DNA of 64,000 nt. Source: Escherichia phage BYEP02. This document shows, piece by piece, positions 819 to 56,307 of this stretch (positions are counted from its first letter, which is position 1; each line of letters starts with the position of its first letter). A program made the translations under genes and the position numbers. Under the pieces are notes generated by a model. The model saw only the letters and a program-made list of their open reading frames with translations. It was not told the origin of the DNA and did no database searches. Location: the sequence record OR757454.1; one strand, 5' to 3'.

Positions 819-1427
819 ATGGATACTAAATTAGCTGAAATTTTTGAAGGAAAACATCCAAATTTTAGTACAGGAAAGCTGAAAGATAAAATAATAAAAG
901 AAAATATTTTTCCATATGAGTGTGCAATTTGTAAAATTTCAAAATGGCAAAATAAGCATATTGTTCTGCAATTAGACCATATTGACGGAAATAACAAAAA
1001 TCATCTTAAATCAAATTTAAGATTATTATGTCCAAATTGCCATTCGCAAACTGATACTTTTGCTGGTAAAAATATTAAAAATAATAAAAAGCGTTATAAT
1101 GTTAGTGATGAAGAAATTTTAAACGCATTATTAAATTCTGCTACTATATCATCTGCAATTACTTCATTAGGTTTAAGTAAAGGCGGAAACTATAAAAGAT
1201 TCATTAAAATTGCTAATGATAATAAATTATATCATTTACTGGTAAATATTAATGAAAACATTTTAACTGATGAAATTTACGAAGAATTAGTTAAAATTGA
1301 TTATTCTAAATTTGGATGGGTTAGTAAAGCTGCTAAAATAATAGGTATAAGCCCACAAAAAGCTAGAAAATGGATAGAACGAAAGTGTCCAGAATTGATA
1401 GAACAATCTTTTTCACGTAATAAATAA
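819..1427 (+). CDS. HNH-family homing-type endonuclease
   Basis: HNH core in translation (LDHIDGNNKNH...LRLLCPNCH); C-terminal helix-rich segment; lies immediately 5' of tRNA cluster. Confidence 0.7.
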   Translation: MDTKLAEIFEGKHPNFSTGKLKDKIIKENIFPYECAICKISKWQNKHIVLQLDHIDGNNKNHLKSNLRLLCPNCHSQTDTFAGKNIKNNKKRYNVSDEEILNALLNSATISSAITSLGLSKGGNYKRFIKIANDNKLYHLLVNINENILTDEIYEELVKIDYSKFGWVSKAAKIIGISPQKARKWIERKCPELIEQSFSRNK

Positions 1428-1525: not shown

Positions 1526-1752
<227 letters not shown>

Positions 1753-2550: not shown

Positions 2551-2901
2551 ATGAAAGGTAATGTTTATTTAGTAGTTCATGATTTAACATTTTACTTCAA
2601 TGAATATGAAAAACATATCTCATTTCGTGAAATTAATTTACTTTATCAACATGCGGATTATATTTATATTCAAAACGAATTTGGTCATTGGCAATTTCTC
2701 AAAAATCGTTCATTTGGCTTAGATGGTTACGAATACTTTGAACGTAAAGACCTTTTAGATAAAATTCCGTTATCTACGCAATATCAAAATCACAAATCTT
2801 TATATAAATGCCGTCCAATTCGAAATGTTGAATCCGCGTATGAAGCAATTGATTTATGGCGTGAACGCCGTAAACAGATTGATGCTTTAAAAGAATATTA
2901 A
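2551..2901 (+). CDS. hypothetical protein (116 aa)
   Basis: ATG with GAGGA RBS directly after tRNA-Arg. Confidence 0.5.
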   Translation: MKGNVYLVVHDLTFYFNEYEKHISFREINLLYQHADYIYIQNEFGHWQFLKNRSFGLDGYEYFERKDLLDKIPLSTQYQNHKSLYKCRPIRNVESAYEAIDLWRERRKQIDALKEY

Positions 2902-2904
2902 GAA

Positions 2905-3160
2905 ACCGGGTCGCTACCGGTAAGTCGTCGGACTGATGTTCCCTGAGTAAGGAATTGCGTTAATAATCTTTGCGTTTATTGATGCCCTCTTACATCACAG
3001 CAGAAACGGCGCACCGAATTATCGATTCGAGGAAATATCTTTGCCGTAAGCCGAGTAGCGTTTTTGACGGAACGTTCGGATATGGTCGAGATATGGCCTT
3101 TTAAAAATATTGAGTAGCGTCAACTGCTTAATAACCGGGTTCGAATCCCGGCGTTTCGTA
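2905..3160 (+). ncRNA. possible small stable RNA(s) distal to tRNA cluster
   Basis: Non-coding GC-rich stretch with tRNA T-arm-like element (ccgggttcgaatcccgg); position matches where T4 has small stable RNAs. Confidence 0.3.
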
Positions 3161-3210
3161 CAAACACTTGCCTTAGCAGGTGGAACCCCGACAAGGTTGC
3201 CGCAAGGCTT

Positions 3211-3239
3211 AGCCCCGACCGAAAGGTTGGGGCTTTTTG
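3211..3239 (+). terminator. intrinsic terminator, 10-bp stem, GAAA loop, T-tract
   Basis: agccccgacc-gaaa-ggttggggct followed by ttttt. Confidence 0.7.
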
Positions 3240-3291
3240 GTATAACACTTGCCTTAGCAGGTGGAACCCCGACAAGGTTGCCGCAAGGCTT

Positions 3292-3320
3292 AGCCCCAGC
3301 CGAAAGGTTGGGGCTTTTTA
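3292..3320 (+). terminator. intrinsic terminator (second repeat unit)
   Basis: agccccagcc-gaaa-ggttggggct followed by tttt. Confidence 0.7.
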
Positions 3321-3321
3321 G

Positions 3322-3329
3322 TATAAATA
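3322..3329 (+). promoter_or_regulatory. T4-type late promoter TATAAATA
   Basis: Exact TATAAATA ~37 nt upstream of ATG 3366. Confidence 0.55.
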
Positions 3330-3365
3330 AGTATATTAAATCTACAAATTAAAACAGGAAATAAG

Positions 3366-3839
3366 ATGAAATCATATGCTCAATTTTTAAATGAAGCGGT
3401 GTTAAATGAAGCATCTAGCACTGAAATTCAAGCTGTTGCAAAAGCTGCCATTGCCGCGGGTAAATATTCCTATAAAGATGCTTCCGATGAATCACGATTC
3501 CAATTTGCTCGTGATATGAAAGCCGAAGGATTTACAGGGAATGCAGTTAGTATGGCTTGGAAAAGTTTAGTTGCTACTGGAGCTGCTTTTGCAAAGGCTT
3601 CAGGTAAACCTGCTCCTAAGGCTGACCCTAAAGCAGCACAAGAAAAAAATATTGCTAAAGGAATTATCTCTAGGTATGAAGCAATTCTTAAAGAACTTTT
3701 GATAATTAAGACCGAAGGCCAGAAACTTGCGCGTGCTTATAGTTTCAAAGATAATCCACATGCTCATGACCTAGAGTATGTTGAAGACCTCCAAAAAATC
3801 ATCAAAGACCGCATTTGGTCTGCTAAACAAATCAAATAA
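3366..3839 (+). CDS. internal head protein (IP-like) with N-terminal capsid targeting sequence
   Basis: N-terminus MKSYAQFLNEAVLNEASSTE resembles T4 IP targeting sequences; flanked by repeated terminators. Confidence 0.65.
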   Translation: MKSYAQFLNEAVLNEASSTEIQAVAKAAIAAGKYSYKDASDESRFQFARDMKAEGFTGNAVSMAWKSLVATGAAFAKASGKPAPKADPKAAQEKNIAKGIISRYEAILKELLIIKTEGQKLARAYSFKDNPHAHDLEYVEDLQKIIKDRIWSAKQIK

Positions 3840-3846
3840 CATTCTT

Positions 3847-3875
3847 AGCCCCGACCAAAAGGTTGGGGCTTTTTG
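3847..3875 (+). terminator. intrinsic terminator, third copy of the agcccc...ggggct hairpin
   Basis: agccccgacc-aaaa-ggttggggct followed by tttt. Confidence 0.7.
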
Positions 3876-4007
3876 GTATCTAGGCCTTTCCGGGCCTCTC
3901 TAGGCATCATTTAGTTTATACCCTTTATAATATATTATCCTACCTTTTAATTGCCCCTCCTGACCCTAGAATTCCCTAAAACTTTTTAAAAATTTTTTCA
4001 CAAAACT

Positions 4008-4037
4008 GTTTACATCCCTGTTCTTCCATGGTACTAT
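4008..4037 (+). promoter_or_regulatory. T4 early-type promoter (GTTTAC, 18 nt, TACTAT)
   Basis: Upstream A/T tract, -35 gtttac, -10 tactat; same architecture recurs across the window. Confidence 0.6.
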
Positions 4038-6482: not shown

Positions 6483-6922
6483 ATGCAAAAGCCAAAACTA
6501 AATAAAGTCAAATATTCGCTTCCTGAGTCATTTTTAATTTTTGCTGTGGCGTTGGCTGTAGCTCTTGCTGGTAGTCTTATTGGATTAATGATTGACTGTA
6601 TTATTTTAAACATCGATGGCACAGTAATTATAACAGATGTTTGGAGTGAACTTCGTTTTACTATAGCGATTTCATTATTTTCATTCTTTGGTACCATGTT
6701 ATATTTTCATTATGATAATTTTAAAATAAATTGGCAAAGAAAAAAGGATTACAAAATACAATTAAAAGAATATAATAATATTTTCATTATGATAATTTTA
6801 AAATAAATTGGCAAAGAAAAAAGGATTACAAAATACAATTAAAAGAATATAATAACTACATGTCTTATATTGAAAATGAATCAATGGAAGAGTTTGTGAG
6901 TGATTGTAGGAAAATTAAATGA
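6483..6922 (+). CDS. membrane protein, frameshifted by a 77-bp duplication
   Basis: Frame from ATG 6483 restored after removing 77 nt (121 codons). Confidence 0.5.
6704..6857. repeat. 77-bp tandem duplication (6704-6780 / 6781-6857), 1 mismatch
   Basis: Read directly. Confidence 0.9.
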
Positions 6923-7407: not shown

Positions 7408-8802
<1,395 letters not shown>

Positions 8803-9286: not shown

Positions 9287-9760
9287 ATGAAAACATATCA
9301 AGAATTTATCACTGAAGCAGCTATTAATTCTCAAATTATTGCTGAATCTTTTACTGATCTTTTGAAATTTAAAAAAGGTCAAAAAATTACTGCTGTATTG
9401 GATGATGGTACAGAAGTTGAGATGGATGTACAGGGATATAATTATGCAGTAGATGGAAAACTGTATAATAAATCCCATGCTAAATTTGATTCATTTGACG
9501 ACTTTGTTAATACAGTTGAAGATGAAAAAACTCGTAGATCAATTTCAACTGGTGATGCTAAGGTTCTTATGGCACACGGTCATGAACGTATTCGCGCTAA
9601 ACAGAATAAAATGGGTGAAGATAATTTCGCATTAGTTGGTTATCAATCTGGTAAACAAACTTATGGCTATCAGCGTACTGCTACCATGTATAATAAAAAT
9701 GGTAAAATCGCTTTCGTGAATAGTAAAGGTTCTATTCAGTACGTCAAATCATTCAAATAA
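9287..9760 (+). CDS. internal head protein (IP-like) with capsid targeting sequence
   Basis: N-terminus MKTYQEFITEAAINSQIIAE is the T4 IP-type targeting sequence. Confidence 0.65.
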   Translation: MKTYQEFITEAAINSQIIAESFTDLLKFKKGQKITAVLDDGTEVEMDVQGYNYAVDGKLYNKSHAKFDSFDDFVNTVEDEKTRRSISTGDAKVLMAHGHERIRAKQNKMGEDNFALVGYQSGKQTYGYQRTATMYNKNGKIAFVNSKGSIQYVKSFK

Positions 9761-23912: not shown

Positions 23913-24884
23913 ATGTCAGCAGTAATTAATAATGTCAATGCAGTAATTAAATCTTTAGTTAATAAAAAAATGATGAATGAATGGACTGTATTTCGTCGTG
24001 GAGAGCCAGATAAATTTTTTCATAGATTTAACCCAACTTTGGATTTGAATGTTATCGACAAAGATGTTCATGCTGAAATTTTAGATAAGTTTAAAGTTGA
24101 TATTGGATTTGGATTAGAAAAACATCTACAGCGAACAAATGGGTCTGGAATGAGTTTATCTAATCGCATTATGAAAGCCCTTAATAAAATTGGAGCATTG
24201 TCTCGTATTAAGCGAACAAACGGGTCTGGAATGGGTTTATCTAATCGCATTATGAAAGCCCTTAATAAAATTGGAGCATTGTCTCGTATTAATGCAAGTG
24301 AAATTCTTCGCAATTATAATAAAGGCTATGATCTTTACGGTCGACTAATGCCGAAATTATCATTTGACCAAATGATCGCAGATTTGTGGGAAAATCAACG
24401 ACGATTATTAGCATTAGGCGCTCGATTAGCTAAAGGTCTAGATAAACAAATGATTTTTAAGACCAATAATACAGAAGACCTTAAATGCTTTAAATTTAGT
24501 ATTCGCGGCGATGATTATTACGTCAGAGCTCGCTCTACAGATTATGTTAATATGGGGCATCATCTCTGTTTAGCTTTTGAAGTTTTAAAAGAAGCCGGAA
24601 CATTAGAATATGTGTCTGGTGCTAAATGCCCGATTGGTTCAAGTTGTATTTTAATTTATCGCCCGGATGAATCCAGTTTAACTAAATTGCCTACAAAACC
24701 TGTACCAGTTCGCAGTAATGAAAAACATTCTGAGCAAATTGATTATTTTAATAAGCAAATTGAAGAGCTGAATATTTCTATTCAACAGTATGACGATGAA
24801 ATTTTCAGACTATCTGGATTGAGTAGTAAAGCTAAATCTGAGCGTGAAAAATTAATTAAAATTGTTGATTTACTTAAATCTTAA
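23913..24884 (+). CDS. hypothetical protein A of a 4-gene tandem set; contains an in-frame 27-aa tandem repeat; C-terminal coiled coil
   Basis: ORF intact through 81-bp repeat; C-terminus heptad-like. Confidence 0.55.
   Translation: MSAVINNVNAVIKSLVNKKMMNEWTVFRRGEPDKFFHRFNPTLDLNVIDKDVHAEILDKFKVDIGFGLEKHLQRTNGSGMSLSNRIMKALNKIGALSRIKRTNGSGMGLSNRIMKALNKIGALSRINASEILRNYNKGYDLYGRLMPKLSFDQMIADLWENQRRLLALGARLAKGLDKQMIFKTNNTEDLKCFKFSIRGDDYYVRARSTDYVNMGHHLCLAFEVLKEAGTLEYVSGAKCPIGSSCILIYRPDESSLTKLPTKPVPVRSNEKHSEQIDYFNKQIEELNISIQQYDDEIFRLSGLSSKAKSEREKLIKIVDLLKS
24131..24292. repeat. 81-bp in-frame tandem repeat (24131-24211 / 24212-24292), 3 mismatches
   Basis: Encodes RTNGSGMSLSNRIMKALNKIGALSRIK / RTNGSGMGLSNRIMKALNKIGALSRIN. 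Confidence 0.9.
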
Positions 24885-45466: not shown

Positions 45467-48240
45467 ATGAAAGAATTTTATATCTCTATTGAAACAGTCG
45501 GAAATAATATTGTTGAACGTTATATTGATGAAAATGGAAAGGAACGTACTCGTGAAGTAGAATATCTTCCGACTATGTTTAGGCATTGTAAGGAAGAGTC
45601 AAAATACAAAGACATTTATGGTAAAAATTGCGCTCCTCAAAAATTTCCATCAATGAAAGATGCACGAGACTGGATGAAGCGAATGGAAGACATCGGTCTC
45701 GAAGCTCTTGGTATGAACGATTTTAAACTCGCTTATATCAGTGATACATATGGTTCAGAAATTGTTTATGACCGAAAATTTGTTCGTGTAGCTAACTGTG
45801 ACATTGAGGTTACTGGCGATAAATTTCCTGACCCAATGAAAGCAGAATATGAAATTGATGCTATCACTCATTATGATTCAATTGATGATCGTTTTTACGT
45901 CTTTGATTTGTTGAATTCAATGTACGGTTCAGTATCAAAATGGGATGCAAAGTTAGCTGCTAAGCTTGACTGTGAAGGTGGCGATGAAGTTCCTCAAGAA
46001 ATTCTTCAGTATCAAAATGGGATGCAAAGTTAGCTGCTAAGCTTGACTGTGAAGGTGGTGATGAAGTTCCTCAAGAAATTCTTGACCGAGTAATTTATAT
46101 GCCATTCGATAATGAGCGTGATATGCTCATGGAATATATCAATCTTTGGGAACAGAAACGACCTGCTATTTTTACTGGTTGGAATATTGAGGGATTTGAC
46201 GTTCCGTATATCATGAATCGCGTTAAAATGGTTCTCGGTGAACGTAGTATGAAACGCTTCTCTCCAATCGGTCGGGTAAAATCTAAACTAATTCAAAATA
46301 TGTACGGTAGCAAAGAAATTTATTCTATTGATGGCGTATCTATTCTTGATTATTTAGATTTGTACAAGAAATTTGCTTTTACTAATTTGCCGTCATTCTC
46401 TTTGGAATCAGTTGCTCAACATGAAACCAAAAAAGGTAAATTACCATACGACGGTCCTATTAATAAACTCCGTGAGACTAATCATCAACGATACATTAGT
46501 TATAACATCATTGACGTAGAATCAGTTCAAGCAATTGATAAAATTCGCGGGTTTATCGATCTAGTTTTAAGTATGTCTTATTATGCTAAAATGCCTTTTT
46601 CTGGTGTAATGAGTCCTATTAAAACTTGGGATGCTATTATTTTTAACTCATTGAAAGGTGAACACAAGGTTATTCCTCAGCAAGGTTCGCATGTTAAACA
46701 GAGTTTTCCGGGTGCATTTGTATTTGAACCTAAACCAATTGCTCGTCGATATATTATGAGTTTTGACTTGACGTCTCTGTATCCGAGCATTATTCGTCAG
46801 GTTAACATTAGTCCTGAGACTATTCGTGGTCAGTTTAAAGTTCATCCAATTCATGAATATATCGCAGGAACAGCTCCTAAACCGAGTGATGAATATTCTT
46901 GTTCTCCGAATGGATGGATGTACGATAAGCATCAAGAAGGTATCATTCCAAAGGAAATCGCTAAAGTATTTTTCCAGCGTAAAGATTGGAAAAAGAAAAT
47001 GTTCGCTGAAGAAATGAATGCCGAAGCTATTAAAAAGATTATTATGAAAGGCGCAGGGTCTTGTTCAACTAAACCTGAAGTTGAACGATATGTTAAGTTC
47101 AGTGATGATTTCTTAAATGAACTATCGAATTATACTGAATCTGTTCTCAATAGTTTGATTGAAGAATGTGAAAAAGCGGCTACACTTGCTAACACAAATC
47201 AGCTGAACCGTAAAATTCTTATTAACAGCCTTTACGGTGCTCTTGGTAATATTCATTTCCGTTACTATGATTTGCGAAATGCTACTGCTATCACAATTTT
47301 CGGTCAAGTCGGTATTCAGTGGATTGCTCGTAAAATTAATGAATATCTAAATAAAGTATGTGGAACTGATGGTGAAGATTTCATTGCCGCGGGTGATACT
47401 GATTCGGTATATGTTTGTGTAGATAAAGTAATTGAAAAAGTAGGTCTTGACCGCTTTAAAGAACAAAATGATTTAGTTGAATTCATGAATCAGTTTGGTA
47501 AGAAAAAGATGGAACCTATGATTGATGTTGCATATCGTGAGTTATGTGATTATATGAATAATCGCGAGCATCTGATGCATATGGACCGTGAAGCTATTTC
47601 TTGCCCTCCACTTGGTTCAAAGGGCGTTGGTGGATTTTGGAAAGCGAAAAAGCGTTATGCTCTGAACGTTTATGATATGGAAGATAAACGATTTGCTGAA
47701 CCGCATCTAAAAATCATGGGTATGGAAACTCAACAGAGTTCAACACCAAAAGCAGTGCAAGAAGCTCTCGAAGAAAGTATTCGTCGTATTCTTCAGGAAG
47801 GTGAAGAGTCTGTCCAAGAATACTACAAGAACTTCGAGAAAGAATATCGTCAACTTGACTATAAAGTTATTGCTGAAGTAAAAACTGCGAACGATATAGC
47901 AAAATATGATGATAAAGGTTGGCCAGGATTTAAATGTCCGTTCCATATTCGCGGTGTGCTAACTTATCGTCGAGCTGTTAGTGGTCTGGGTGTAGCTCCA
48001 ATTTTGGATGGAAATAAAGTAATGGTTCTTCCATTGCGTGAAGGAAATCCATTTGGTGACAAGTGCATTGCTTGGCCGTCGGGCACAGAACTTCCAAAAG
48101 AAATTCGTTCTGATGTACTATCTTGGATTGACTACTCAACTTTGTTCCAAAAATCGTTTGTTAAACCGCTTGCGGGCATGTGTGAATCGGCTGGTATGGA
48201 CTATGAAGAAAAAGCTTCGTTAGACTTCCTGTTTGGCTGA
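45467..48240 (+). CDS. 43: DNA polymerase gp43 (family B), frameshifted by a 77-bp duplication
   Basis: 898 aa after removing 77 nt; exo and polymerase motifs present (e.g. YGDTDS-like GDTDS). Confidence 0.95.
45930..46083. repeat. 77-bp tandem duplication (45930-46006 / 46007-46083), 1 mismatch, inside gene 43
   Basis: Read directly. Confidence 0.9.
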
Positions 48241-52723: not shown

Positions 52724-54228
52724 GTGGTAGAAATTATTCTTTCTCATCTCATATTTGATCAAGCTTATTTTTCAAAAGTTTGGCCATATATGGATTCAGA
52801 ATATTTTGAAAGTGGTCCAGCTAAAAATACATTCAAATTAATTAAATCTCATGTTAATGAGTACCATAGCGTTCCATCCATTAATGCGTTAAATGTTGCA
52901 TTAGAAAATAGTTCATTTACTGAAACAGAATATTCTGGTGTAAAAACACTTATTTCAAAACTAACCGATTCTCCGGAAGACCACAGCTGGTTAGTAAAAG
53001 AAACAGAAAAATATGTTCAGCAAAGGGCGATGTTTAATGCTACGTCTAAAATAATTGAAATTCAAACCAATGCTGAGCTTCCTCCAGAAAAACGAAATAA
53101 GAAAATGCCAGATGTAGGTGCTATTCCTGACATCATGCGCCAAGCATTGTCAATTTCATTTGATAGCTACGTCGGTCATGATTGGATGGATGACTACGAA
53201 GCACGTTGGCTATCTTATATGAATAAAGCTCGTAAGGTTCCATTTAAACTCAAAATTCTAAATAAAATTACTAAAGGCGGAGCTGAAACTGGAACACTGA
53301 ACGTTTTAATGGCTGGTGTTAACGTTGGTAAGTCATTAGGATTGTGTTCATTGGCAGCAGATTATTTGCAGCTCGGACACAATGTTCTTTACATTTCCAT
53401 GGAAATGGCAGAAGAAGTCTGTGCTAAGCGTATTGACGCTAATATGCTCGATGTTTCTCTTGATGACATTGATGATGGGCATATTTCTTACGCTGAATAT
53501 AAAGGAAAAATGGAAAAATGGCGTGAGAAATCTACTCTTGGACGTTTAATCGTTAAACAGTATCCTACTGGTGGAGCAGACGCTAATACATTTCGATCGC
53601 TTTTAAACGAATTAAAGCTCAAGAAGAATTTTGTTCCAACAATCATTATTGTTGACTATCTAGGTATTTGTAAATCTTGTCGCATCAGAGTTTATTCAGA
53701 AAATAGTTACACAACTGTTAAAGCTATCGCAGAGGAATTGCGTGCTCTGGCTGTTGAAACCGAAACTGTTCTTTGGACCGCAGCACAAGTTGGTAAGCAA
53801 GCTTGGGATTCTTCTGATGTTAACATGAGCGATATTGCAGAATCTGCCGGTCTTCCGCAGCACAGGTTGGTAAACAAGCTTGGGATTCTTCTGATGTTAA
53901 CATGAGCGATATTGCAGAATCTGCCGGTCTTCCAGCAACAGCCGATTTTATGCTTGCGGTCATTGAAACCGAGGAGTTAGCAGCTGCTGAACAACAACTC
54001 ATTAAGCAAATCAAATCACGATATGGTGATAAGAATAAATGGAATAAGTTTTTGATGGGTGTTCAAAAAGGAAATCAAAAATGGGTAGAAATTGAGCAAG
54101 ATTCTACTCCAACTGAAGTTAACGAAGTAGCAGGTTCACAGCAGATTCAGGCTGAGCAGAATCGCTATCAAAGAAACGAATCTACTCGAGCCCAGTTAGA
54201 TGCTTTGGCAAATGAATTAAAATTTTAG
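52724..54228 (+). CDS. 41: replicative helicase gp41 (DnaB-like), frameshifted by a 77-bp duplication
   Basis: Walker A GVNVGKS; 475 aa after removing 77 nt; GTG start. Confidence 0.9.
53780..53933. repeat. 77-bp tandem duplication (53780-53856 / 53857-53933), 2 mismatches, inside gene 41
   Basis: Read directly. Confidence 0.9.
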
Positions 54229-55783: not shown

Positions 55784-56147
55784 TATGTATAGTTCTGAAT
55801 TTTCATATTTAAAAATGGAAAAAATTTCATACGATTTCATAGATGAAAAGGTTTATTACAGTTTCCATGAACCACGTTTTAATAGTGAAGTTGGGTTTAT
55901 TGTAGTAAAAGACAATTTCATTTTAAAGATATATTCGGCATTAAAGGATTTTCACTACGAAAATATTAACCTAAAATTTGATAAAGAAAACGTTCGTAAT
56001 TGTGCAGTAACAATTACAGGAAATAAAGGCACATGTGTTATGATATCTGATGAAATTAATGATTTGCTAAATGATGCCGAAAAGGTTGCTATTCCATCTA
56101 TTGATGACCAAATTTTTAATGCTTTTATGAATAGAGGTTAATATGAA
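55739..56147. repeat. dispersed direct repeat, two ~49-bp copies (55739-55789 and 56097-56147) at the 3' ends of adjacent genes
   Basis: tctattgatgaccaaatttttaatgcttttatgaatagag(a/g)ttaatatg. Confidence 0.85.
55785..56141 (+). CDS. hypothetical protein (118 aa); C-terminus shared with previous gene
   Basis: Ends SIDDQIFNAFMNRG. Confidence 0.5.
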   Translation: MYSSEFSYLKMEKISYDFIDEKVYYSFHEPRFNSEVGFIVVKDNFILKIYSALKDFHYENINLKFDKENVRNCAVTITGNKGTCVMISDEINDLLNDAEKVAIPSIDDQIFNAFMNRG

Positions 56148-56307
56148 AACATATAAAGAATTTATTAAAGAAGATATGGTTGCTGGAGATTCAGGTGGTA
56201 ATCCTGAAAATATCTCTACTGGAACAACGTCAGGTGCTGTAGTAAATAAAGGTCCTGAACAGATTCCTAAAAAGAAAAAAGAGGAATCTAAAGAAAAAGA
56301 AGAGTAA
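56143..56307 (+). CDS. small protein (54 aa) with capsid-targeting-like N-terminus MKTYKEFIKE
   Basis: ATG 2 nt after upstream stop; Lys/Glu-rich tail; not in supplied ORF track. Confidence 0.4.
   Translation: MKTYKEFIKEDMVAGDSGGNPENISTGTTSGAVVNKGPEQIPKKKKEESKEKEE

What the first reader, a model, noticed from the sequence alone, without database searches (positions are those of the whole stretch)
2905..3883. IP-like gene packaged as a cassette between repeated terminator hairpins
Downstream of the tRNAs is a 250-nt non-coding, structured region with a tRNA T-arm-like element, then an 81-bp tandem repeat (3163-3324). Each repeat unit ends in a 10-bp-stem hairpin plus T-tract; one unit carries a ga-to-ag swap that still pairs. 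A third copy of the same hairpin follows the IP-like gene at 3847-3875, and a TATAAATA late promoter lies just upstream of it. Flanking conserved repeats are how T-even phages are thought to swap internal-protein genes. The 81-bp period and covariation argue this repeat is natural, unlike the 77-bp ones.
Basis: partly seen in the sequence, partly recalled or inferred. Interest (0 to 1): 0.6.

Follow-up and report, generated by a model that had tools for sequence, protein, structure and literature searches.

The report
Phage internal-protein cassette, artefactual tandem repeat
In this T4-like phage, a small late gene with the leader peptide of a head "internal protein" sits between two copies of a terminator hairpin and is gained or lost as a unit among related phages. 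The 81-bp tandem repeat beside it is a stitching artefact of this sequence, not a natural feature.

Summary
The window is a Tequatrovirus (T4-like) genome, closest to phage slur03. The "structured non-coding region" is T4's known stable RNAs rnaD (2897-3015) and rnaC (3022-3160).

The 81-bp tandem repeat is in the window but is very probably not biological.
- It is one of 33 two-copy head-to-tail duplications (31 of 77 bp, 2 of 81 bp). All are absent from slur03, and the 77-bp ones break essential genes.
- None of the top-ranked related phage records holds the repeat. Its junction is absent from IMG/VR, GTDB genomes and JGI metagenomes.
- Its two copies are two natural alleles of one single-copy locus found in different strains.
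- The GA-to-AG "swap" changes one side of the stem only, so it is not covariation.

The cassette is real and conserved: operon terminator, TATAAATA, a 157-aa gene whose first 10 residues fit the T4 capsid-targeting leader and gp21 cleavage site, then a second hairpin copy.
- Relatives carry no cassette (T4), this gene, a paralogue, or both, with breakpoints inside the hairpin.
- RB32's GenBank record already notes the flanking direct repeat.
- No record or paper I checked calls the gene an internal protein.
- It lies outside the two recognised Ip loci.

The parts
2897..3015 (+). rnaD (T4 species 2 stable RNA)
   Evidence: Coordinates transferred from the Aplg8 and T4 annotations. About 98% identical to T4 across rnaD plus rnaC.
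   Evidence: Annotated as rnaC in T4, Aplg8 and GiZh. Folds at -50.2 kcal/mol, z = -4.55, with the T-arm-like hairpin GGGTTCGAATCCC.
3163..3243 (+). First 81-nt unit: operon 3' trailer plus terminator hairpin (stem-loop 3211-3234). It carries the 'GA ... TTTTTGGTATAA' allele. This is the redundant copy at a stitching junction.
   Evidence: Absent as a second copy from slur03, Aplg8, Solly, T4 and two metagenome contigs. The allele occurs as the single copy in ECML-134 and an IMG/VR contig.
3244..3324 (+). Second 81-nt unit: the same trailer plus terminator hairpin 1 (stem-loop 3292-3315, then T5). It carries the 'AG ... TTTTTAGTATAAATAAG' allele, which runs on into the late promoter.
   Evidence: The allele occurs as the single copy in vB_Eco_EL, PinkRuby and an IMG/VR contig. 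The site is annotated as a terminator in Aplg8 and in further records. Fold -20.6 kcal/mol.
3322..3329 (+). TATAAATA, the T4 late-promoter consensus, 37 nt upstream of the start codon
   Evidence: Conserved in nearly all relatives that carry cassette A. The assignment rests on sequence only.
3366..3839 (+). Gene A: a 157-aa basic, all-helical protein (RB32 ORF133c family, phrog_2280). Codons 1-10 (3366-3395) are the capsid-targeting-like leader MKSYAQFLNE, followed by Ala.
3844..3879 (+). Second natural copy of the 36-nt terminator block (stem-loop 3847-3870, then T5). It forms the right-hand direct repeat of the cassette.
   Evidence: Present in slur03, Solly, EL and RB32.
3325..3879 (+). The 555-bp cassette as defined against T4's empty site. 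Because of the 36-nt repeat, 3289-3843 is an equivalent definition.
   Evidence: T4 has one hairpin followed directly by GGTATCTAAGCC....
4009..4037 (+). Early-type promoter-like site (GTTTACA, 17 nt, TACTAT) for the downstream e.8 gene. It lies outside the cassette and is conserved with T4.
   Evidence: A consensus match only.

Best explanation
With the redundant 81-nt copy removed, the locus reads: tRNA cluster, a 116-aa ORF, rnaD, rnaC, a 48-nt trailer, an intrinsic terminator hairpin, a late promoter (TATAAATA), gene A, and a second copy of the same hairpin.

Gene A with its promoter and terminator is a self-contained late transcription unit. It is inserted at the terminator of the tRNA/stable-RNA operon.

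Inferred mechanism for the protein:
- It is made late.
- Its 10-residue leader carries it into the prohead scaffolding core.
- The gp21 protease cuts after Glu10 (L-N-E, then A). A second L-N-E/A follows at residue 15.
- The basic mature protein of about 16 kDa is packaged and injected with the DNA.
- By analogy with Ip1-3, it probably blocks a host defence.

Inferred mechanism for the repeats: the two hairpin copies form 36-nt direct repeats that serve as homologous crossover sites. Recombination between them deletes or installs the cassette and leaves one hybrid hairpin, as seen in T4.

The 81-bp tandem repeat is not part of this biology. It is an unmerged overlap where two pieces of sequence from different, closely related strains were joined. 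The 31 duplications of 77 bp and the other 81-bp one have the same origin.
For: Artefact:
- There are 33 two-copy tandem duplications with periods of only 77 or 81 bp. The homologous 65 kb of slur03 has none.
- Every one is absent from slur03. Six further contigs lack the four duplications I tested.
- The 77-bp ones split genes 43, 41, 42 and 46.
- All 30 top-ranked rows of the 672 matching phage records hold the 81-nt unit once. The same holds for the other 81-bp duplication.
- The junction is absent from IMG/VR, GTDB genomes and JGI metagenomes.
- Two contigs that encode the identical protein have a single unit.
- Copy 1 and copy 2 are alleles seen singly in other strains. The same is true of the tRNA-Pro duplication.
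- Differences between copies in coding duplications fall at codon position 3 in 31 of 43 cases, and 33 are synonymous against 7 non-synonymous.
- Divergence from slur03 rises along each piece and resets at each junction.

Cassette:
- T4 has one hairpin and no gene.
- IME340 has only the paralogous gene B. PinkRuby and ECML-134 have A plus B. Breakpoints lie in the hairpin.
- In a spread sample of 36 records with both flanks joined, I inferred from span lengths 7 empty sites, 23 with A, 2 with B and 4 with A plus B.
- Gene A occurs in 511 records and gene B in 165.

IP-likeness:
- The leader fits those of Ip2, Ip3, Ip4, Ip7, Ip9 and IpVI.
- Residues 4 and 7 (targeting) and 8 and 10 (processing) match the requirements reported for the capsid-targeting sequence, and L/I-x-E is the gp21 motif (PMC9026906).
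- The mature protein has pI 9.4.
- The leader motif occurs 4 times in six-frame translation of the window, always at an ORF start. My rough, uncomputed estimate is about 0.1 by chance.
Against: - There is no direct evidence that the protein is packaged or injected.
- Beyond the leader it has no similarity to any named Ip. It falls in a different PHROG of unknown function, and its fold matches nothing.
- The site is not one of the two Ip loci recognised in the literature.
- TATAAATA alone is not statistically unusual.
- The process that produced the duplications is not identified. I cannot explain why two of them are 81 rather than 77 bp, or why both 81-bp ones keep reading frame or lie outside genes.
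- At this junction, unlike most, neither copy equals slur03.
- No reads were available.
Confidence: 0.75

Rival explanations
1. The 81-bp tandem repeat is a genuine recent duplication in this phage. It would give two terminators in tandem after rnaC, perhaps created by unequal crossing-over between co-infecting strains.
For: - The period differs from the 77-bp class.
- It causes no frameshift, because it is non-coding here and in-frame at 24130.
- Both copies fold as good terminators.
Against: - No related sequence I examined, and no collection I scanned, contains it.
- A second 81-bp duplication behaves like the 77-bp artefacts.
- The copies are alleles of two different strains.
- Only 2 nt of microhomology lie at the boundary.
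- The background rate of such repeats in slur03 is zero per 65 kb.
Confidence: 0.04
2. Gene A is not a packaged internal protein. On this view the leader-like N-terminus is inherited sequence without a targeting function, and the protein acts in the infected cell late in infection.
For: - It shows no homology to known Ips beyond 10 residues.
- It lies outside the two Ip loci.
- Every record I looked at calls it hypothetical.
- Position 3 is S rather than T, and positions 5-6 differ from the classical leader.
Against: - All four residues reported as critical for targeting and processing are kept.
- The leader is conserved across the family, including gene B and more distant members.
- Known Ips share only the leader with each other.
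- The protein is basic and has a late promoter.
Confidence: 0.2
3. The repeated hairpins are only terminators. On this view their similarity reflects the single event that inserted the cassette, and later gains and losses arose by illegitimate recombination or whole-region replacement rather than by crossing-over in the hairpin.
For: - Cassette B is bounded on the right by a different stem, and only about 9-10 nt (GGGCTTTTT) are shared.
- The hairpin is not dispersed elsewhere in the window.
Against: - All four combinations (none, A, B, A plus B) exist, and the A breakpoints fall exactly within the 36-nt repeat.
- Hairpin alleles (GA or AG) are sometimes the same in both copies of one genome (PinkRuby) and sometimes different. 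This fits exchange between the copies.
Confidence: 0.15

Closest known systems
T-even internal proteins (Ip1-3 of T4; Ip4-Ip9 and IpIV-VI of relatives) and their polymorphic loci (Repoila et al. 1994, as described in PMC2839356, PMC12373910 and PMC9026906)
   Same: - An N-terminal leader of about 10 residues with an L/I-x-E cleavage site.
- A small basic protein.
- The gene varies in presence, order and identity among strains.
- It is flanked by conserved untranslated blocks that can mediate shuffling.
- The RB32 record likewise notes 43-bp direct repeats around Ip7 plus Ip9.
   Different: - It lies at a third site, between rnaC and e.8. The recognised loci are 57B-trna.4 and e-denV.
- The body of the protein is unrelated to any named Ip.
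- Packaging has not been shown.
- The flanking element is a GC-rich intrinsic terminator, not the AT-rich early-promoter-based elements described for the Ip loci.
PeSL cassettes of RB49/phi1-type phages (Arbiol et al. 2010, PMC2839356; Comeau et al. 2014, PMC4122927)
   Same: - A gene is bracketed by repeated regulatory motifs that include a terminator stem-loop.
- The empty site retains a single motif.
- The unit is transcriptionally insulated.
   Different: - There is no sigma-70-like early promoter. The promoter here is a late TATAAATA.
- The motif is confined to this one locus within the 64 kb.
Morons of lambdoid phages (as summarised in PMC2839356)
   Same: A single gene with its own promoter and terminator, inserted between resident transcription units.
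   Different: Here the flanking repeats themselves appear to be the recombination sites.
RB32ORF133c annotation in GenBank DQ904452
   Different: The record calls it a hypothetical protein. It mentions neither the leader nor the late promoter.
Unmerged k-mer-length overlaps between adjacent contigs in de Bruijn graph assemblies (my own knowledge; k = 77 is a common SPAdes setting)
   Same: Exactly two head-to-tail copies of fixed length, scattered along the sequence, that break genes.
   Different: - Many copies differ by natural alleles, which exact k-mer overlaps would not.
- Two of them are 81 bp.
- The sawtooth in divergence from slur03 is not explained.

Membership tests
T-even internal protein (Ip) | N-terminal capsid-targeting leader of about 10 residues (MK[TS][YF]x[EQ]F[IL]xE) | tested here: met
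   MKSYAQFLNE compared with MKTYQEFIAE (IpII/III), MKTFKEFINE (Ip7) and MKTYQEFISE (Ip9). Residues 4 and 7 are kept.
T-even internal protein (Ip) | gp21 cleavage motif L/I-x-E at the end of the leader | tested here: met
   L8-N9-E10 followed by Ala, and again L13-N14-E15 followed by Ala. This rests on sequence only.
T-even internal protein (Ip) | Protein present in the mature head and injected with the DNA | not testable with these tools
   Needs virion proteomics or injection assays. I found no paper on this ORF.
T-even internal protein (Ip) | Encoded in one of the two polymorphic Ip loci | tested here: not met
   The gene lies between rnaC and e.8. ipI lies upstream of the tRNA cluster, and Ip4 and the other Ip genes lie near e and denV.
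T-even internal protein (Ip) | Presence/absence and order polymorphism with conserved flanking untranslated blocks | tested here: met
   The configurations none, A, B, A plus B and A' all occur between the same flanks.
T-even internal protein (Ip) | Late expression | tested here: inconclusive
   TATAAATA lies 37 nt upstream and is conserved in most relatives. The motif is not enriched in the window and there are no expression data.
PeSL (promoter-early stem-loop) cassette | Strong sigma-70-like early promoter combined with the stem-loop | tested here: not met
   No -35/-10 match lies next to either hairpin. Only TATAAATA is present.
PeSL (promoter-early stem-loop) cassette | Motif repeated at many intergenic sites of hyperplastic regions | tested here: not met
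   The hairpin is found only at 3211, 3292 and 3847 in the 64 kb. The rest of the genome was not available.
PeSL (promoter-early stem-loop) cassette | Flanks a variable ORF, and the empty site keeps one motif | tested here: met
   T4 and IME340 compared with the window and PinkRuby.
Natural tandem repeat of the phage genome | Seen in independent sequences of the same or related phages | tested here: not met
Natural tandem repeat of the phage genome | Structure-preserving covariation between copies | tested here: not met
   No pair changes on both sides. Variation is one-sided (GA, AG, TT) opposite an invariant TT.
T4 stable RNAs rnaC / rnaD | Sequence identity to T4 species 1 and 2 RNAs, and position at the 3' end of the tRNA cluster before a terminator | tested here: met
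   About 98% identity to T4. Annotated as such in T4 and Aplg8. There is no Rfam family for them.
Intrinsic (Rho-independent) terminator | GC-rich stem-loop followed by a T tract | tested here: met
   A 10-bp stem with 7 GC pairs, a GAAA or AAAA loop and T5, at about -20 kcal/mol. Termination itself was not tested.

The most novel reading that the evidence does not exclude
The rnaC-e.8 junction is a third, so far unrecognised internal-protein locus of T-even phages.
- Its cargo (phrog_2280; genes A, A' and B) would be a widespread family of injected proteins carrying the capsid-targeting leader.
- Gene A occurs in 511 phage records and gene B in 165.
- These proteins would be new candidates for inhibitors of host defences, such as GmrSD-type restriction enzymes.
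- They would be exchanged through the operon's terminator hairpin.
Probability: 0.5. Interest if true: 0.45.

Novelty: new member of a known kind. Interest (0 to 1): 0.3.

Why it matters
T4's Ip1, Ip2 and Ip3 have all recently been shown to be specific inhibitors of different GmrSD restriction enzymes. That study proposes that all genes in "the two Ip loci" play this role (PMC12373910).

A leader-bearing gene family at a third site has been missed by annotation, although gene A alone occurs in 511 phage records. It would extend the list of candidate injected anti-defence proteins. It would also show that Ip shuffling is not confined to two loci, as Arbiol et al. suggested (PMC2839356).

The practical lesson is negative. 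This window carries 33 stitching duplications, and no repeat-based inference from it can be trusted without comparison to relatives.

Tried and rejected
- Rfam found nothing at 2897-3330, because no family exists for rnaC or rnaD.
- Pfam has no family for gene A.
- An AlphaFold model (pLDDT 76, all-helical) matched nothing in the PDB, and in BFVD it matched only its own family. The fold therefore gives no functional lead.
- I looked for the window's source through exact-protein look-ups. The contigs returned are different strains (97% identical), so the source was not found.
- I tested whether the copies differ by random mutation. They do not: the differences are natural, mostly synonymous alleles, and the tRNA-Pro copy carries four compensated stem changes and matches other phages 100% over 78 nt.
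- I tested whether a 4-bp indel next to the repeat (TAGT in slur03 and Solly) explains 81 = 77 + 4. It lies outside the repeated unit, and there is no indel near the other 81-bp duplication, so I rejected this.
- A plain exact k-mer overlap between contigs does not explain the duplications. 20 of the 33 have mismatches between copies, and divergence from slur03 shows a sawtooth.
- Repoila et al. 1994 and Miller et al. 2003 are not held in the library. What I say about them comes from papers that cite them and from my own memory.

Full report
WHAT THE WINDOW IS. The window is a T4-like (Tequatrovirus) genome. The region around the finding matches 770 phage records. The closest relative over 20 kb is Escherichia phage slur03, at 98.8% identity. 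I fetched the slur03 segment homologous to the whole window as a reference. For annotation I also fetched T4, Aplg8, Solly, PinkRuby, IME340, ECML-134, RB32 and PST.

THE STRUCTURED NON-CODING REGION. Positions 2897-3015 and 3022-3160 are rnaD and rnaC, the species 2 and species 1 stable RNAs of T4.
- They are annotated as such in T4 and Aplg8 and are about 98% identical to T4.
- These RNAs are long known, and their function is still unknown (PMC3014915; PMC12685909).
- Rfam has no model for them.

THE 81-BP TANDEM REPEAT IS IN THE WINDOW BUT IS NOT NATURAL. It runs from 3163 to 3326 with period 81 and three differences between the copies.

It is one of 33 duplications of the same kind.
- All 33 have two copies placed head to tail. 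31 have period 77 and 2 have period 81; the other 81-bp one is at 24130. No other period between 30 and 400 occurs.
- The homologous 65 kb of slur03 contains none.
- A megablast of the window against slur03 breaks at every duplication, and the subject steps back by 77 or 81-83 nt each time. All 33 are therefore absent from slur03.
- Six further independent contigs lack the four duplications I tested.
- The 77-bp duplications cut essential genes. DNA polymerase gene 43 becomes ORFs of 188 and 713 aa, and genes 41, 42 and 46 are also truncated. They cannot belong to a viable phage.

The 81-bp unit at 3163 is single wherever else I looked.
- All 30 top-ranked rows of the 672 matching phage records align in two pieces over about 150 nt. 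Each therefore holds one unit.
- The same is true of the other 81-bp duplication.
- The junction sequence is absent from IMG/VR, from one genome per GTDB species and from JGI metagenome contigs.
- Two contigs that encode exactly the same 157-aa protein have a single unit.

WHAT THE TWO COPIES ARE. They are two natural alleles of one single-copy locus.
- Copy 1 (…CCCCGACC…TTTTTGGTATAA) is the allele of ECML-134 and one IMG/VR contig.
- Copy 2 (…CCCCAGCC…TTTTTAGTATAAATAAG) is the allele of vB_Eco_EL, PinkRuby and another IMG/VR contig.

The other duplications show the same thing.
- Copy 1 of the tRNA-Pro duplication carries four compensated stem changes. It matches the tRNA-Pro of other phages 100% over 78 nt.
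- In coding duplications, 31 of 43 differences between copies fall at codon position 3, and 33 are synonymous against 7 non-synonymous.
- Copy 2 nearly always equals slur03, while copy 1 carries the variants.
- Divergence from slur03 climbs from 0.2% to 2.85% along each inter-duplication piece and resets at each junction.

I conclude that the window is stitched from overlapping pieces of closely related strains, and that the overlaps were never merged. I could not identify the process, and I cannot explain why two overlaps are 81 nt. I put the chance that the 81-bp repeat is biological at about 4%.

THE COVARIATION ARGUMENT. In the hairpin, positions 7 and 8 of the 5' arm pair with an invariant TT. 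GA gives G·U plus A-U. AG gives A-U plus G·U. A third natural allele, TT, does not pair at all. No pair changes on both sides. This is a one-sided polymorphism, not covariation.

WHAT IS REALLY THERE. With one unit removed, rnaC is followed by these features:
- a 48-nt trailer;
- a 10-bp GC-rich hairpin with T5, at about -20 kcal/mol, annotated as a terminator in several records;
- TATAAATA at 3322-3329;
- a Shine-Dalgarno sequence;
- a 157-aa ORF at 3366-3839;
- a second copy of the 36-nt hairpin block at 3844-3879.

The hairpin occurs nowhere else in the 64 kb.

T4 has a single hairpin. Its left flank is the rnaC trailer, and its right flank (GGTATCTAAGCC…) is what follows the second hairpin here. 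Relative to T4, the window therefore carries a 555-bp insertion bounded by 36-nt direct repeats.

Four configurations exist between the same flanks:
- empty: T4, Sf24, ELT1, G2540-3 and phage 132;
- gene A: the window, slur03, Aplg8, Solly, EL and RB32;
- gene B only: IME340 and EP01, where B is a 187-aa paralogue of the same PHROG;
- A plus B: PinkRuby, ECML-134, ZN18 and OE5505.

A divergent A' also occurs in IMG/VR contigs.

IME340 equals PinkRuby minus gene A and one hairpin, with the junction in the hairpin.

In a spread sample of 36 records with both flanks joined, I inferred from span lengths 7 empty sites, 23 with A, 2 with B and 4 with A plus B. Gene A occurs in 511 records and gene B in 165.

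The natural flanking repeat is therefore conserved, and it marks the boundaries of gain and loss.

IS THE GENE IP-LIKE? Its first ten residues, MKSYAQFLNE followed by Ala, align with the leaders of several named internal proteins:
- IpII and IpIII: MKTYQEFIAE|A
- Ip4: MKTYQEFITE|A
- Ip7: MKTFKEFINE|A
- Ip9: MKTYQEFISE|A
- IpVI: MKTFKEFIAE|S

Gene B starts MKTYAEFLTE|A.

A review of the T4 head reports three relevant facts (PMC9026906):
- the first 10 residues of IPIII suffice for encapsidation;
- residues 4 and 7 matter for targeting, and residues 8 and 10 for processing;
- gp21 cuts after L/I-x-E.

All four residues are kept here.

Further points:
- The leader motif occurs four times in six-frame translation of the window, always at an ORF start. 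My rough, uncomputed estimate is about 0.1 by chance. One of the four is Ip4.
- The mature protein is basic, with pI 9.4.
- An AlphaFold model (pLDDT 76) is all-helical with a disordered leader. It has no structural relatives.
- Beyond the leader there is no similarity to named Ips. Known Ips also share only the leader with each other (PMC12373910).

I put the probability that this is a packaged, injected protein at about 0.6-0.7. Packaging, cleavage, late transcription and any anti-defence role are inferred, not shown.

COMPARISON WITH WHAT IS KNOWN. Shuffling of Ip genes through conserved flanking sequences has been known since Repoila et al. 1994, which I know only through citing papers. 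Arbiol et al. 2010 describe the analogous PeSL cassettes. They state that Ip genes are confined to two small loci, and a 2025 study also speaks of "the two Ip loci".

The site here is a third one, about 2.7 kb from ipI on the other side of the tRNA cluster.

The RB32 GenBank record already notes that ORF133c is "flanked by 34 bp imperfect direct repeat". It calls the product hypothetical, as does every other record I examined. No paper mentions the ORF. I could not read Comeau et al. 2007, which is said to list more than 30 Ip variants, so prior recognition cannot be excluded.

The cassette is not a PeSL. It lacks an early sigma-70-like promoter, and the motif is not dispersed.

VERDICT. The eye-catching part, the 81-bp repeat with "covariation", is an artefact. 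The cassette is real but largely anticipated. The modestly new element is a leader-bearing gene family at a third site that annotation has missed.

Noticed in passing
window, 33 sites from 629 to 62002 (e.g. 6701-6855, 45928-46083, 53778-53933, 24130-24292): There are 31 two-copy tandem duplications of 77 bp and 2 of 81 bp, about one per 1.9 kb. All are absent from slur03. Many split essential genes (43, 41, 42, 46). The copies differ by natural, mostly synonymous alleles.
   Followed up: yes
window, every piece between duplications: Divergence from slur03 follows a sawtooth. It rises from 0.2% in the first tenth of each piece to 2.85% in the last tenth and resets at each duplication. Copy 2 almost always equals slur03. 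I could not identify the process that made the window.
   Followed up: partly
window 1598-1750 and 1807-1962: Duplications inside the tRNA cluster create partial extra tRNAs (Rfam partial hits at 1617-1675 and 1865-1918). The extra tRNA-Pro fragment is a different natural allele with four compensated stem changes.
   Followed up: yes
window 2551-2901 (+): A 116-aa ORF (phrog_3355, unknown function) sits between tRNA-Arg and rnaD. These are adjacent in T4. Its stop codon overlaps the annotated start of rnaD.
   Followed up: no
window 819-1427 (+): A 202-aa ORF with a weak HNH endonuclease match (E = 0.005, below the Pfam cut-off) lies just upstream of tRNA-Leu, where T4 has tRNA-Gln. The window and slur03 lack tRNA-Gln there. 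It may be a homing endonuclease.
   Followed up: partly
window 9287-9760 (+), 8444 (+), 56143-56307 (+): Three further ORFs have internal-protein-type leaders.
- 9287-9760 is Ip4/IpIV (DUF7412).
- The ORF at 8444 ([10 protein letters not shown]|S) is 93 aa in slur03 but is truncated here by the 77-bp duplication at 8459.
- A 54-aa ORF just before the primase gene starts MKTYKEFIKE followed by Asp.
   Followed up: partly
window 3384-3413: Gene A contains a 15-nt near-duplication that encodes FLNEA then VLNEA. This gives two consecutive L-N-E/A motifs of the gp21 type. The A' variants lack the extra five residues.
   Followed up: no
L007 (PinkRuby) 1539-2260; L014 (IME340) 400-1125: Cassette B ends in a different hairpin (CCCTATC…GATAGGG). 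That hairpin shares only GGGCTTTTTGG[TC]ATCTAGGCC with the main one, as if B had been inserted inside the original hairpin's 3' arm. Upstream of B the sequence is TAATAAATA, one mismatch from the late-promoter consensus.
   Followed up: partly
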